Positions 7,632-16,200 of a DNA stretch of 64,000 bases are shown here, one piece after another. The notes under the pieces were generated by a model. It was given only the letters and a program-made list of their open reading frames with translations. It did not search any database and was not told where the DNA came from. Each line of letters begins with the position of its first letter. The stretch's first letter is position 1. The stretch covers positions 5,821,806-5,885,805 of the forward strand of contig NW_003526943.1 of assembly GCF_000181795.1 (NCBI RefSeq). The letters run 5' to 3'. The translations under genes were made by a program, and so were the position numbers. Source of the stretch: Trichinella spiralis. Its lineage: Eukaryota.

Positions 7632-7703
7632 AGGTTCCACCGAGATTCGAACTCGGATTGCTGGATTCAAAGTCCAGAGTGCTAGCCGTTACACCATGGA
7701 ACC
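7632..7703 (-). tRNA. tRNA-Gln (anticodon TTG)
   Basis: Reverse complement GGTTCCATGGTGTAACGGCTAGCACTCTGGACTTTGAATCCAGCAATCCGAGTTCGAATCTCGGTGGAACCT folds as a 72-nt cloverleaf. TTTCTTTT terminator-like tract just downstream. Confidence 0.95.
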
Positions 7704-8417: not shown

Positions 8418-8489
8418 AGGTTCCACCGAGATTCGAACTCGGATTGCTGGATTCAAAGTCCAGAGTGCTAGCCGTTACACCATGGAACC
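8418..8489 (-). tRNA. tRNA-Gln (anticodon TTG), identical second copy
   Basis: Same 72-nt sequence as 7632-7703. Confidence 0.95.
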
Positions 8490-10297: not shown

Positions 10298-13200
10298 ATG
10301 GTCGGCATGAATCCTTGTTATTGTTGGAATCTTAAAGACGGTTGCATCACTGTTGGCATTTGGACATTGGTAAGTCAGTCAGTGAACTTTCATGTTTACT
10401 ATTTTGCACAAAATTGTTTACTTGTAAACAAGAGATTTCATTTTTCCAACATGATTCACATGTCATAATTTATCCCAATCTTTGTATATACATTGTTGAA
10501 CATTTTCATAAACAAATTTCATTGTTTGGCTTATTTTTTTATGCTAACTTAACTGAATTTTACCAAGTGTGTGATAAATTGAGCAAACAATAATAGTGAC
10601 GAAGCGTTAAGCCGAAATGAAGAAACAACAAAAACATGCAATTGCTTGATTATACTTCCGCATCTAGTTGGAAAATAATGAAGGGGTAGGGTTGGAGCAG
10701 AGGACAATTTATCTCAACTCAATACGAGTTGTTTGTTAAGGTAGATTTGTTTACAAGAACATGGTTACTTAGCAAGTTCAATTTACCGTGACAGAAGAAG
10801 AAAAACATGCTTCAAATGAGCAAATTTTTTTTCTAATAAACGCATGTCATCGTTATGCAAACACCAACAGCATTGCTTGATTTGTAATTTTATATTTTAC
10901 ATTTTTGACTTTTTGCATTATTCTTCAATTGTGCTGCCACTTGTTTAAATAAAATTATCCATTTGTCTTGTCAAAATTTAAGCTGATATTTCTTTTTAAA
11001 TTAATCCCCTTCTAGCTTTCAATTGAAAATTTTCACCTGAAACATGGAATCTGTTGTACAATAGAATTATAATTTCAGTATGATTATAATTTCACGCTGT
11101 TCAGAGTTTGTGGTTTAAATTCAAATTAGCGATGCATTGTTCATAGGACAATAATTTACCTCTCGCAGCATCATTAGGTAACTAATCTCTGCGTAATTAG
11201 CTGAAATTCTTTACCTGTTTTCAAATCATAATTTGAGTCAACTTTGAAATGAACGAATTTATATATCAAATATTTAAAAATACTTCTCTTTGCAACGGAT
11301 TTATTATTAATTACAAACAATTTAATTTAAAAGAATACCAAAAATTTGTTTTTTTCACTGTATGTTACGAATCACATTCCCTTATTTTTCTATTTTGTTC
11401 ATACAGTCATCAAAGTGTAGATGAAATCTGATAAAAAATGACAAAATTTGAAATGTTTGCTCAATTACAAACAAGACGAACGCTTGTAGTGGTCAAAAAT
11501 TCTGCGCTGGTGGACGAAGCGAGAATTTCTGATTTTTTTTTCCACCTCTCAATTTTATTGCAAAATTAAGCATGCATCATCAATGTGAGGGCTGTATGCT
11601 TGTGATAGTTTCACGCTGTGCTCTATTTGCTTTAAAATGTTGTGCTTGTTTTCAAAGCCAGCAGCTTGTGGACAGTCGTCAAAATTGATGACTCATACTG
11701 AGGCAAAGTTGGACAGGTTCTGCTTGATGCTGTTTGCAAAGGTAGACTATTGGACAATACAAACAGGATGCTTATTGCGAGTTTGCTTTATCGATTTTAT
11801 TGATGAAGCGGGTATCAAATTTTTCATTTCATCCCATATCTCCAATAATTTCTTTCTACTAGGTGGAAAATTTGATTTTAATGTAGCATCACTGTTAATT
11901 TAAATATGTCTTTTCATTAACACTCGTTGAAACTGAGCAAATGCAATCATATTTCATTATTTATATTCTACTGTAAATTTATAAAACTATGTGAAAGTGT
12001 TAAAGGCCTCTCATTTGTTGGAATAACGTTGACATCAAACAGAGACTAGTCAGTTAATTGTGCCGCATTTCGTGTAATGTCAAAAGGAGAATTATGGAGC
12101 TTGAAATGACAACGCGTTACCATAGCGACGATGCTTGAGAGAAGCTTAAAGTATACGCCACGATCTCAGCATTGTTGGTGCTTAATCATTCCCATTGCCA
12201 GGCCGAGGTCGTTTAGGTATTTTAAAAAGTTGGCCATGCAGTGGCTTGCCAGTGGAGGAGCCTTGTCCTTATTTTTATTTTGTATTTTCAAAAGTGGTAC
12301 AATGCACAGCTTGGAACGACGCGCGAAAAACCTTGTCCCAAATACCATCCGGAACATGTCCAATTTGCTTTGCATCAGTCAGAAAACAATAAAGTGATGG
12401 GGAATTAATTTTGAAAAATTGCTCATACACTTGAAATCAAAAATCATATCGACTCACTTGTCAGAAGTGTTTCCCTACTTTAAAGGCATTCAAATCAGAA
12501 CAACAATAGACAGACAAACAAACATTTTTTACCAAAAAAAATATAAGTAATAAACTAATGCTGAATAACGCTATTATTATTATTGTTATATTCGATATTA
12601 CTGCAGATTTTCAATAGATGCAATTCACTCTTGCATTTAATTTAAATTAAATTTCATTTCATTTAAACAGCAGATGCTGATTGAGAGAAGCATGAAAATT
12701 GTTTAATATGCATTGTTCCCTTCACTGCAATAATCAGATATATGATCATATTTATTCAGAAGTAAATTTCTATTTATTAATAAATATATTGAGTTGTAAT
12801 ATATAATTAATATTTACTGCACTAAAAGCTGAGGTTTTTAATTTTTAATGTAAAAATTATTTTTATTTTTATTACCGTAGTTTAAAAGGTGGCTTCAAAA
12901 TAATATTATGGTTAAACATTTATAAAAGAATGTATGTACTGTTTTTACATCGAAACTAATTTTAAAACTTTTATCAAAAATAAATAATAAAACTGCCTAC
13001 ACATTGATTCATTGCATATTATATCTCAGATTTAAGCTTATTAACATTACAATCTGGTTGCATGCGGATATTCTCAAGTGAAAATTAAGATGCAGTGTTA
13101 AACACAGAAACTTAAAAATAAGTAAAAAATTTTAGTTATCCAAATGTAGTTTATCACATACTGCCTATTGATGTATGATCAATTTTGATCAAAATTCCGC

Positions 13201-16200
13201 TTCATTATATGCAGTTATTAAATTAAATAATTAAATTAATGTGCAAATTTAGTTGCATGATCAATTGTTGAAAGTTTTATGTTAAAATTTTAATAAACAG
13301 CTCTATTTTTGCATCTGGAAATATGTTTTAAAAATATACACGTTTTTATATAACTTCAAACTGATTTTAGGTGTTTTCTTTCACTCAAATTGGTCTCTTC
13401 AGCTGGCAAACTTCAACACTTAACGGATGCAAGCACTTGCTTTACTATGTTTTAAACTCTTGCCAATTTTATTGCCCTTGCGTTCGAAGTGGAGATATTT
13501 ATGCAACCCAAAGGCTAATTCAGGGTAAACAGTTTTTCTGTAAAACGGACGGGACTGCTCATATTAGAATACCTTCTTCGGCGGGGACTGTTGTCTAGCT
13601 GTGCTTTGCTAGCTGTCGTACGTTTGCCACCTGAAAGTGGATCGAGATGAGTGAAATGGAAACATCACAACAGAAATTTAGCAAATTGCAAATCTGTTGT
13701 ATTGTAGATATGTTCTATCATTCAACTCGCCATCTTCTCGTGGCAATCGTATGTCATCAAATGGGAAAGGGACAAGACGGCTAATCGTCGTTTACCCTTT
13801 TATGGTACTCAGTCTTCATATGATTTTCGTTATTATGGTCCAGATTATTCTTCATTTTACGTAACTCCAGAAGAGCGATTTTACACCGGTAATCATAACT
13901 TAAATTCATTTCTCTTTTCCCTGTTTCTTTGGTGAGAAAAGCCATATTTGAAGTTTGCCAGCTGAAATGAGACCTGGGATTTTTGTTTGCATTTAAGAAT
14001 ATTGTTTTGCTTAGATGTATTCATTGTCCCAGGTGGCAATTTTCGGCTGGCAAACTTGGATCATTCGCTTATTGAAAGATAAGGCATCTAATGAACGTTA
14101 TACTCCAAATTTGGGAGCTTGGCGTCCAGAAGGTGAAAAATGGAAAGGCTATTTTGAACTAGCCTGGATGACTGATGAAGAACGGCGTTACTTTGGTTCC
14201 TTTAATTTCCAATTTGTTCCCCACTTTTTAAGGTTTATTCTAAAAAAACGTTGCTTATTATCCCAATTTTATTTTTAGGTTTGTTTGTCATTCAAATTTT
14301 GTGCTTGATCTCTGCTTTCTTTCTTCTATTTGGCTCAGTATCGCTCATTTATGGCATCCATACAGTAACACTTATTTGTATTATGTTAATTGTGAAATTA
14401 ATATACAACTTTTTGCAGAACTCGAAGCACCTCGTATGGCCATGGTTTCCGTGTGTGGTATCTTCGATACTTTGCTCAGTGGCTTACTGTATTACCTGGT
14501 GGGCTTCGGTAATTTAACCTGAATCCTATAATATGAACTATTTTGAAAATTACGTAGTCCTTTACTTCCAGGGAGTGGATAATTACTGGCTCATATTGAC
14601 CATTATAGAGTGGTTTTCAGTTATGATAAATGTAAAAAAGTATAATTTTTGTTTTCAGTTTAAAATATAATAGTAATTTTAGCTTTATGCACTTCTATGT
14701 GTCATTGTTCAGTATCGAAGAATTCTTCGAAACTATGACGAATATTCTGAAGAGCAAAAGGTACCTGTCGTAGTTTGGGATGATCAAAATCAGAAGGGAA
14801 ATTTCACTGAAACTAAACTTGGACGTAAGTTTACTGCTTACAATTGCTGCTGCTTGCTTTTCCTATTTTGTTTATCATTGCTTGCTGATGTATCTTGCGC
14901 AGATCAATAATTTTGTTATTATAATTAATAATTAATTTGAAAGTGTAAGAAAAGTAAAAATGGAAATGAATGAATGCAAGTTACAGCTACAGAATAGAAT
15001 TTTTATTTGTTATGTTTGCTATCTATTTTCCTTCTTGGCGCTATCTGCACTTTCGCTTTCAGCTGAGGCTTACTGGAATAAGACATTTGAAGAAGAACCT
15101 AAACCAGCTGTTAAAAGTAATGTTTCTGCTAAAGGACCATCACAGTTTATTGGGACACAATTTGGACAAAAGCAGATGCCCTACCATGCTCAAACTACTT
15201 CTGCTCTTGACGATCCTGGCCATGTGCTAGAACGTTACACGACAGAACCAGGAATTAAAGCGAACGACAGATATGATGCAAGATCATTTACAGCGTTGAA
15301 TGTTGCTACGGACGAAGTGGAATTACCTGCCAAAGAGAATCGTTCAGAAAATGATGTATTCACCCCGTCTGTGCCAATTGCCAAACGGCAAACAGAAGAT
15401 GAAATACTCAGGAGTAAATCAGTGGATGCACTGACAGCCCAACTCGAAGAAAGGGATCGTCGAAGTGTTCCGTATGTGTTTTCCTTATTAAAATATTAAA
15501 AATTGAACAGTAGTATAAATGAACATAAATGATTAAGTTTGTTGCATAATTTCAATTGATTATTATAAGTAGTAGTACTTGCAAATAACAAATAAACGGT
15601 ATGCATAATTAACAGTTTAAAACCTGAATAAATACATTTACATTGATCCTAAATTCTGTGCATTTGCGTTTTTATTTTATCAAACTGTTTTCTAAGCTGA
15701 GCACATGCCATCTGAAAATTAGTATTCATTTTTGCAGTTTTTGAATATTTATTAAATAAAAGTAATTTCTGAGATGACGAAAAAAGAATTGCATATTTTC
15801 AGGCACAGCAAATCTAAAGAATCAATAACAACACGTCACAGACATCGCAGTCACAGTCATCATCGTGGTGATCGTCGAGGAGATTATTATTCTGACGAAG
15901 AGACGGACATTGCTCGCTCTGTTGCTGGAAGTCGCAGTCGAATCAGTGAAACTGATACCGGTTACAGCTGCAGTGACGGTTCCAGAAGGAGCCGGCATCG
16001 TCGTCGTCATCACAGTCACGATGAAAGTGAACGTGGGCATCATCACCGTCATCGACGCCACCGGAGACCACGCGACGTAAAGCGGGATGACAGAGAGCGA
16101 AGTCACAGCAACAACAACAACAACAACAACAATGTTAGCAATGCTAATAACAGACAATCCAGTACAAACAGTTCGCCGGCAGCAGTACAAGCTGGACTTA

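What the first reader, a model, noticed from the sequence alone, without database searches (positions are those of the whole stretch)
13370..13974. Competing RNA duplexes use a coding exon as the docking site for three-way exon choice
Seen: the first ~45 nt of exon 2a (13370-13416) are complementary to two separate intronic segments. Selector b (13622-13666, before exon 2b) gives ~38 bp and reaches the G of the 2a acceptor AG. Selector c (13948-13974, before exon 2c) gives 19 perfect bp plus 6 bp. Both need the same core TTCAGCTGGCAAAC (13398-13411), so only one can pair at a time. Established: competing docking/selector pairing governs mutually exclusive splicing in arthropod Dscam1-type clusters, where docking sites are typically intronic. 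Inference: pairing with b masks 2a and delivers the upstream intron to 2b, pairing with c loops out 2a and 2b, and no pairing leaves 2a. The same bases would then encode both protein (LFSWQT) and a splicing switch. I do not know a description of this in nematodes but cannot search.
Basis: partly seen in the sequence, partly recalled or inferred. Interest (0 to 1): 0.92.

Follow-up and report, generated by a model that had tools for sequence, protein, structure and literature searches.

The report
Musical-chairs RNA switch for exon choice
In a Trichinella roundworm membrane-protein gene that uses one of three alternative exons, two intron stretches are each complementary both to their own exon and to the first exon, so they are predicted to cover two exons at a time and likely leave just one open for splicing.

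Summary
The gene is the Trichinella orthologue of C. elegans W06F12.2. RNA contigs join exon 1 directly to 2a, 2b and 2c, and show no double-exon joints.

Both selectors pair with the 2a head (-50, -44 kcal/mol). Each pairs about as well with the head of its own exon (-44 to -50, -47), forming long hairpins around the 2b and 2c acceptors (z -7, -9). Exon paralogy does not explain the double fit (0 of 200 simulations each). Two blockers and three exon heads give three predicted states within about 5 kcal/mol, each freeing one head.

The shared 2a core keeps its synonymous bases in Trichuris suis (7 of 7, against 8 of 22 in the flanks; indirect). Another nematode carries a 17-bp pair around 2a, but with an intronic dock.

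An exonic dock has precedent (Dscam1 Ubs6.1), and so does two-exon masking (ATE1). The three-exon combination, in a nematode, was not found in nine searches. The scan noted related intron-exon pairings on other DNA, not this gene. No mutational test exists.

The parts
10298..10369 (+). Exon 1 coding part (24 codons, phase-0 donor), followed by a 3001-nt intron
   Evidence: Joints 10369 to 13371 and 13708; exon-1 loose ends at all three acceptors; frame
13371..13524 (+). Alternative exon 2a, 154 nt (3n+1), Cys-rich loop type; same length as C. elegans W06F12.2 exon 2a
   Evidence: PMC4165533 Table 1; 2a-type group 100/99 in the tree
13370..13416 (+). Exonic docking head of 2a (acceptor G plus codons 1-15); core 13391-13412 shared by both selectors
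   Evidence: Duplexes; shifted-frame comparison with T. suis; no variant place
13605..13615 (+). Minor element b': 11-bp complement of the 2a core, occupies it in the state where both selectors are home; role unexplained
   Evidence: MFE helix 13400-13410:13605-13615; prefix folding
13617..13674 (+). Selector/blocker b: pairs either with the 2a head (13622-13666) or with the 2b acceptor region and head (13693-13753)
13708..13888 (+). Alternative exon 2b, 181 nt (3n+1); its first 46 nt are the 3' arm of hairpin b (13612-13760)
13948..13980 (+). Selector/blocker c: pairs either with the 2a head (13948-13974) or with the 2c head (14026-14057); carries 2a-specific and 2c-specific ends
13988..14019 (+). 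10-bp stem 13988-13997:14010-14019 that buries the 2c acceptor AG, at the top of hairpin c
14015..14195 (+). Alternative exon 2c, 181 nt (3n+1), weak donor gttcct
   Evidence: Exon 1 to 2c in X19 and X20; 2c to exon 3 joint in X10 and X18
14279..14364 (+). Common exon 3

Best explanation
Exons 2a, 2b and 2c are spliced as alternatives, and two intronic elements, each complementary to its own exon head and to the 2a head, are predicted to mask two of the three exon starts at any time and so likely leave one exon open. State A: both elements fold back on their own exons and 2a is used. State B: element b sits on 2a, element c on 2c, and 2b is used. State C: element c sits on 2a, element b on 2b, 2a and 2b are looped out, and 2c is used. 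Pairing with 2a would also bring the end of intron 1 next to the chosen acceptor. During transcription each element appears before its own exon head, so it would first catch 2a and could later be displaced; elongation rate or helicases would then set the ratio (inferred). Nonsense-mediated decay likely removes the residual double or zero inclusions. Shown: the exons, their joints, the complementarity and its excess over chance. Predicted: the folds and state energies. Inferred: the effect on splicing.
For: (1) RNA: in all six RNA-like runs listed (3 studies, 4 organism codes) exon 1 joins 2a in 6 of 6, 2b in 6 of 6 and 2c in 2 of 6. No 2a-2b, 2b-2c or 2a-2c joint appears in 6 of 6. Two DNA runs span the stretch without joints. 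(2) Local hairpins: 13612-13760 -56.1 (z -7.2) and 13940-14066 -57.6 (z -8.8), 0 of 200 shuffles each; the 2a acceptor region has none (z -0.85). Of 9 acceptor windows of the gene only 2b and 2c stand out (z -7.5, -6.5; the other seven -0.8 to +1.7). (3) Double specificity exceeds paralogy: selector b gives -50.1 with 2a and -44.1 with 2b, whereas perfect complements of the 2b and 2a heads give only -33.2 and -27.6 across. Selector c gives -44.2 with 2a and -47.2 with 2c, against -37.7 and -40.8. Degraded own-head complements reach the observed 2a energy in 0 of 200 trials each. Synonymous recoding of the heads reaches the observed energy in 0-1 of 500. (4) Balanced states: ensemble energies -228.9, -228.0, -223.9; helix-only -118.6, -123.5, -118.9; the named head is the least paired in each state. 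(5) Prefix folding gives 2a:b, then b:2b, then 2a:c, then c:2c as the transcript grows. (6) Conservation: a T. suis gene model that reads 2a in a shifted frame keeps 7 of 7 degenerate third bases in the shared core against 8 of 22 in the flanks (Fisher p 0.004; 0.008 without one ambiguous codon). A Setaria model that reads through the 2b-2c intron contains FCQLN, where selector c translates as VCQLK. Contig L001 has a 17-bp perfect pair around exon 2a (longest in 300 shuffles: 10) whose 3' arm carries the same TTGCCAG motif 50-56 nt before the next acceptor.
Against: No pairing was observed in RNA and no mutation was tested. No compensatory change could be shown, because DNA of distant Trichinella or Trichuris introns was not obtainable. 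Among close relatives the deficit of variants in paired intron positions is not significant (1 of 124 against 16 of 401, p 0.06; inner introns only p 0.15). In L001 the partner is intronic, and pairing of the selector with exon heads is no better than chance (37 and 146 of 500 shuffles), so the exon-head version is not shown outside Trichinella. The 2c acceptor AG stays in its own 10-bp stem in all three predicted states, and the 2a acceptor is never fully open. State C is about 5 kcal/mol worse in the full ensemble, and unconstrained equilibrium folding gives almost only state A in one window. All double or zero inclusions are frameshifted, so their absence from contigs can be due to decay; C. 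elegans W06F12.2 fidelity is listed as NMD-dependent. Contigs drop rare forms, and their depth is no measure of isoform level.
Confidence: 0.65

Rival explanations
1. One reading: pairing of a selector with 2a masks 2a and delivers intron 1 to the downstream acceptor; the own-exon hairpins are secondary or rarely form, because the selector meets 2a first during transcription.
For: The 2a:b helix is predicted to form as soon as b emerges and to persist until about 13750. L001 uses a plain dock-selector pair with an intronic dock 37 nt after exon 1.
Against: The own-exon duplexes are as strong as the 2a duplexes and stronger than paralogy allows. Selector c has a 2c-specific end (13975-13980), and the hairpins extend over the acceptors.
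Confidence: 0.15
2. Only the local hairpins matter: they weaken the 2b and 2c acceptors so that 2a can compete, RNA-binding proteins open them by tissue or stage, and decay enforces exclusivity. The fit to 2a is a by-product.
For: Local hairpins dominate unconstrained equilibrium folding of 13330-14110. All wrong combinations are frameshifted. C. elegans fidelity depends on NMD. Protein regulators of worm exon clusters are well known (recalled).
Against: The fit to 2a exceeds what a perfect own-head complement gives. Selector c has 19 perfect bp with 2a and a G-U wobble at the same place with 2c. The synonymous bases conserved in T. suis 2a coincide with the shared core.
Confidence: 0.13
3. 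The hairpins serve another purpose (microRNA-like precursor, RNA-editing substrate, or control of intron retention and decay) or are inert inverted copies of exon heads.
For: Hairpin c has a 17-bp stem and weak, sub-threshold Rfam hits to miRNA models (22-26 bits against gathering scores of 83-211). The 2b-2c intron is retained in contigs of 4 of 6 RNA-like runs and carries a stop near 13931-13933.
Against: No Rfam family reaches its threshold. The two same-organism RNA runs show no other letters in the arms (weak, contigs only). The 2a versus 2b/2c split is pan-nematode, so inert copies would have decayed.
Confidence: 0.07

Closest known systems
Human ATE1 exons 7a/7b, elements R1/R3/R4 (PMC7797038; passages and section 14 read)
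   Same: One element between the exons pairs with either of two similar sites at the alternative 3' splice sites, so only one is exposed; tested there by disruptive and compensatory mutations.
   Different: ATE1 has two exons and one blocker, and its sites are intronic, immediately upstream of the exons. Here there are three exons and two blockers, the targets are mostly coding exon heads, and both blockers share exon 2a.
Drosophila Dscam1 exon 6 balancer, Ubs6.1 with Dbs6.40/6.44/6.48 (PMC8791459, passages; PMC12962786, passages)
   Same: A site inside the first variable exon pairs competitively with several downstream intronic elements, masks that exon's acceptor and favours distal exons.
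   Different: The balancer is an auxiliary layer on top of an intronic docking site. The passages read do not describe Dbs elements folding back on their own exon. In Trichinella no intronic dock was found in intron 1 (best -31.6 and -21.8).
Dscam1 exon 6 docking site and selectors (described in PMC11802352 and PMC6071210, passages; the original 2005 paper not seen)
   Same: One selector before each downstream exon, a shared upstream partner, one pairing at a time. L001 matches this layout with an intronic dock.
   Different: The dock is intronic and every exon has a selector; default repression there comes from a protein (recalled), here it is predicted to come from the selector itself.
C. 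elegans W06F12.2 exons 2a/2b (PMC4165533, Table 1 and passages)
   Same: Orthologous gene (Haemonchus cluster members carry the name). Validated mutually exclusive pair, 154 and 172 nt, 3n+1, NMD-dependent fidelity.
   Different: Two exons rather than three; the paper gives no RNA-structure mechanism ('secondary structure' occurs only in its reference list).

Membership tests
Mutually exclusive exon cluster from tandem duplication | Homologous tandem exons with the same phase | tested here: met
   All 3n+1, each alone gives an open frame, aligned heads share S-Q-F-WQ
Mutually exclusive exon cluster from tandem duplication | Each exon joined singly to the flanking common exons | tested here: met
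   Exon 1 to 2a 6 of 6, 2b 6 of 6, 2c 2 of 6; 2a to exon 3 in 3 of 6, 2b 6 of 6, 2c 2 of 6
Mutually exclusive exon cluster from tandem duplication | Double inclusion absent | tested here: inconclusive
   No such joint in 6 of 6 runs, but contigs drop rare forms and decay would hide them
Dscam1-type docking site/selector system | Several selectors complementary to one shared site, beyond chance | tested here: met
Dscam1-type docking site/selector system | Docking site lies in a flanking intron | tested here: not met
   The shared site is exon 2a; no strong partner in intron 1. Met in L001 only.
Dscam1-type docking site/selector system | Conservation with compensatory changes | tested here: inconclusive
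   Close relatives too similar (p 0.06); indirect conservation in T. suis, Setaria and L001; no covariation shown
ATE1-type competing masking of 3' splice sites | One element pairs alternatively over two alternative acceptor regions | tested here: met
   Predicted for both selectors, beyond chance and paralogy
ATE1-type competing masking of 3' splice sites | Loss of the element causes double inclusion; triple compensatory change restores choice | not testable with these tools
   Needs minigenes
Dscam1 balancer (Ubs6.1/Dbs) | Site in the first variable exon paired by several downstream intronic elements | tested here: met
Dscam1 balancer (Ubs6.1/Dbs) | Acts together with a separate intronic docking-selector set | tested here: not met
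   No separate dock found in intron 1
DUF4728/DUF7027-like multi-pass membrane proteins | Pfam gathering score reached | tested here: not met
   Best 23 bits against cut-off 27 among 5 proteins scanned; a resemblance only

The most novel reading that the evidence does not exclude
A protein-free 'n-1 blockers for n exons' logic: every downstream exon carries its own intronic blocker, the first exon's coding head is the shared decoy, and strand exchange during transcription leaves exactly one acceptor open. The blocker motif, complementary to the conserved Trp-Gln codons, would date to the base of the nematodes, with some lineages moving the decoy from the exon into intron 1. This would give a competing-duplex mechanism for a nematode exon cluster that can be tested directly at C. 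elegans W06F12.2.
Probability: 0.45. Interest if true: 0.85.

Novelty: new variant of a known kind. Interest (0 to 1): 0.7.

Why it matters
The docking/selector model leaves open how the exons that are not chosen are kept silent. Here the same short elements would do both jobs, silencing their own exon or being drawn away by the first exon, which extends the two-exon ATE1 logic to three exons in about 700 bases. Nine literature searches found no competing-duplex mechanism for a nematode exon cluster. The gene has a validated mutually exclusive pair in C. elegans, so a genetically tractable test exists. It is also a clear case of coding bases under a second, structural constraint, and the alternative exon swaps the loop after the first membrane segment of a conserved nematode membrane protein of unknown function.

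Tried and rejected
No genome is held for the window. Genome contigs gave 0 relatives among 134 pattern matches. All 20 runs holding the stretch were close relatives (share 0.64-1.00), so distant introns could not be read; no holder was on record as RNA, and six were guessed RNA, which their GT..AG joints bear out. Positions of cluster variants for organisms B and E were cut from the table; only counts were seen (2 differences in about 367 nt over 2a plus intron, against 57 in 2163 nt and 41 in 1437 nt of intron 1). The state energies for A and C used a mis-registered forced helix and were discarded; replace them. One search timed out and was rerun smaller. A predicted helix 13754-61:13928-35 is not trusted, since a variant at 13932 falls in it. 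Orthology of 2b versus 2c across clades is unresolved in the tree; only the 2a group is firm. The motif search of mis-model peptides found three hits among 182 proteins: Setaria P0041 in the expected intron, and two unnamed short proteins (P0161, P0171) that are not counted as support. Rfam gave nothing above threshold. The supplements of the T. spiralis small-RNA paper (PMC3212509) could not be read, so a microRNA from these hairpins is not excluded. PMC7430681 (passages) held nothing on exonic sites. No structure prediction or complex prediction was run.

Full report
Gene and exons. Exon 2b, used as a query, finds 20 proteins, all from Trichinella (98-100% identical) or Trichuris. The window's downstream coding sequence reads like the T. 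spiralis model P0012 (compared by eye). Orthologues occur in Plectus, ascarids, filariae, strongylids and Caenorhabditis, and two Haemonchus cluster members are named W06F12.2. The protein has hydrophobic segments at residues 15-36, 80-113 and 149-173 and a long polar tail; exon 2 (residues 25-84) supplies the end of the first segment and the loop after it. Pfam gives only sub-threshold DUF4728/DUF7027 hits. The exons are e1 10298-10369, 2a 13371-13524, 2b 13708-13888, 2c 14015-14195 and e3 14279-14364. Each alternative exon alone keeps the frame; zero, double or triple inclusion meets a stop by codon 34-107.

Alternative use. All six RNA-like runs listed were laid (3 studies, 4 organism codes). 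Exon 1 joins 2a and 2b in 4 of 4 runs as GT..AG joints. In the other two runs exon-1 letters appear as loose ends at all three acceptors, including 14014. The 2a to e3 joint is seen in 3 of 6 runs, 2b to e3 in 6 of 6 and 2c to e3 in 2 of 6. No joint links two alternative exons, but contigs show presence, not absence. Brugia malayi and Parascaris have three single-exon isoform models. C. elegans W06F12.2 is a validated pair of 154 and 172 nt with NMD-dependent fidelity (PMC4165533, Table 1 seen).

The observation. Both duplexes are as described: 38 bp for selector b, reaching 13370, and 19 + 6 bp for selector c. Neither energy is reached by any of 200 shuffles of the respective intron. The two selector windows are the best two partners of the 2a head among 1595 windows.

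What was missed. A matrix of selectors against exon heads shows that b pairs with 2b about as well as with 2a (-50.3 against -50.2; -44.1 against -50.1 with tighter bounds), and c pairs with 2c as well as with 2a (-47.2 against -44.2). Folded locally, these are hairpins of -56.1 and -57.6 kcal/mol (0 of 200 shuffles each) that enclose the 2b and 2c acceptors; nothing similar surrounds 2a or six other acceptors of the gene. Paralogy of the heads does not account for the double fit. A perfect complement of one head pairs with the other at only -28 to -41, weaker than all four observed values, and degraded own-head complements never reach the observed 2a energy (0 of 200 each). Selector c is a mosaic, with 2a-specific pairs near 13948-13950 and 13969-13971 and a 2c-specific end at 13975-13980, which could serve as toeholds (the toehold role is inference).

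Mechanism. Two blockers and three heads allow three states with one head free. Forced-state ensemble energies are -228.9 (2a free), -228.0 (2b free) and -223.9 (2c free), and the mean unpaired probability of the named head is highest in its own state. Helix-only energies are -118.6, -123.5 and -118.9. Folding growing prefixes gives the order 2a:b, b:2b, 2a:c, c:2c, so kinetics could set the ratio. These are predictions. Weak points: the 2c acceptor keeps a separate 10-bp stem in every state, an 11-nt element (13605-13615) can cover the 2a core when both selectors are home, and unconstrained folding of one window gives almost only the 2a state.

Conservation. In the four runs, 19 substitution places were listed. 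None lies in 2a, 2b, selector b (13617-13674) or selector c (13948-13997). The deficit in paired intron positions is not significant (1 of 124 against 16 of 401, p 0.06; the one change turns A-U into G-U). More distant evidence is indirect. A T. suis model translates 2a in a shifted frame, which exposes third codon positions: 7 of 7 degenerate positions are unchanged in the shared core against 8 of 22 outside (p 0.004). A Setaria model reads through the intron before its third exon and contains FCQLN where selector c reads VCQLK; back-translation is degenerate, so this is a hint. One metagenome contig, L001, holds a two-exon orthologue (154 and 172 nt). Its intron between the exons has a 17-bp perfect complement to a site 37 nt after exon 1 (-42.1, 0 of 500 shuffles), which would loop out 2a, and its arm contains the TTGCCAG motif shared with selector c. 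Its pairing with exon heads is not above chance. RNA pairing around 2a therefore recurs in a distant nematode, but with an intronic dock. No compensatory change was demonstrated.

Comparison. Human ATE1 uses one element that pairs at either of two acceptor regions, with mutational proof (PMC7797038; passages and section 14). The Trichinella cluster works like a union of the two: ATE1-type masking extended to three exons, with the first coding exon as shared partner and no intronic dock found. It fails the intronic-dock criterion for the classical Dscam system and is not filed there. Nine searches returned no description of this layout, nor of competing pairing in a nematode exon cluster; W06F12.2 appears in one paper only. 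The library lacks most subscription journals, and I read listings and passages, not whole texts. Inverted-repeat control of splicing at the C. elegans cholinergic locus is recalled, not checked, and does not concern an exon cluster of this kind. Earlier scan notes show no finding on this gene and two related ideas on other DNA.

Verdict. Observation confirmed; interpretation partly supported and revised; new variant of a known kind; interest 0.70; best explanation 0.65.

Noticed in passing
window 13889-14014: The 2b-2c intron is retained in contigs of 4 of 6 RNA-like runs (contig depth 118-328 against 20-59 in intron 1; depth is a poor measure) and absent in the two runs that show exon 1 joined to 2c. 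Retention brings a stop near 13931-13933. It may be a slow intermediate or an unproductive form.
   Followed up: partly
window 13567-13617: This intron piece, which includes element b', is translated in mis-annotated models and is nearly unchanged in T. pseudospiralis (17 of 17 residues), T. zimbabwensis (16) and T. papuae (15), suggesting a further constrained element.
   Followed up: partly
window 14196-14201: Exon 2c ends in a weak donor (gttcct); the 83-nt intron after it is often retained in contigs and in gene models.
   Followed up: no
L001 2116-2140 and 2496-2520: Intronic dock and selector pair around exon 2a in an unnamed nematode; the dock resembles an exon head (it contains the Trp-Gln codon motif), as if the decoy had moved into intron 1.
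   Followed up: partly
window 7632-7703 and 8418-8489, minus strand: Two tRNA-Gln(TTG) genes upstream of the gene.
   Followed up: no
public gene models P0001-P0017, P0043-P0045, P0080-P0100: Many Trichinella and other nematode models string two or three of the alternative exons together or read them in the wrong frame; the cluster is widely mis-annotated.
   Followed up: partly
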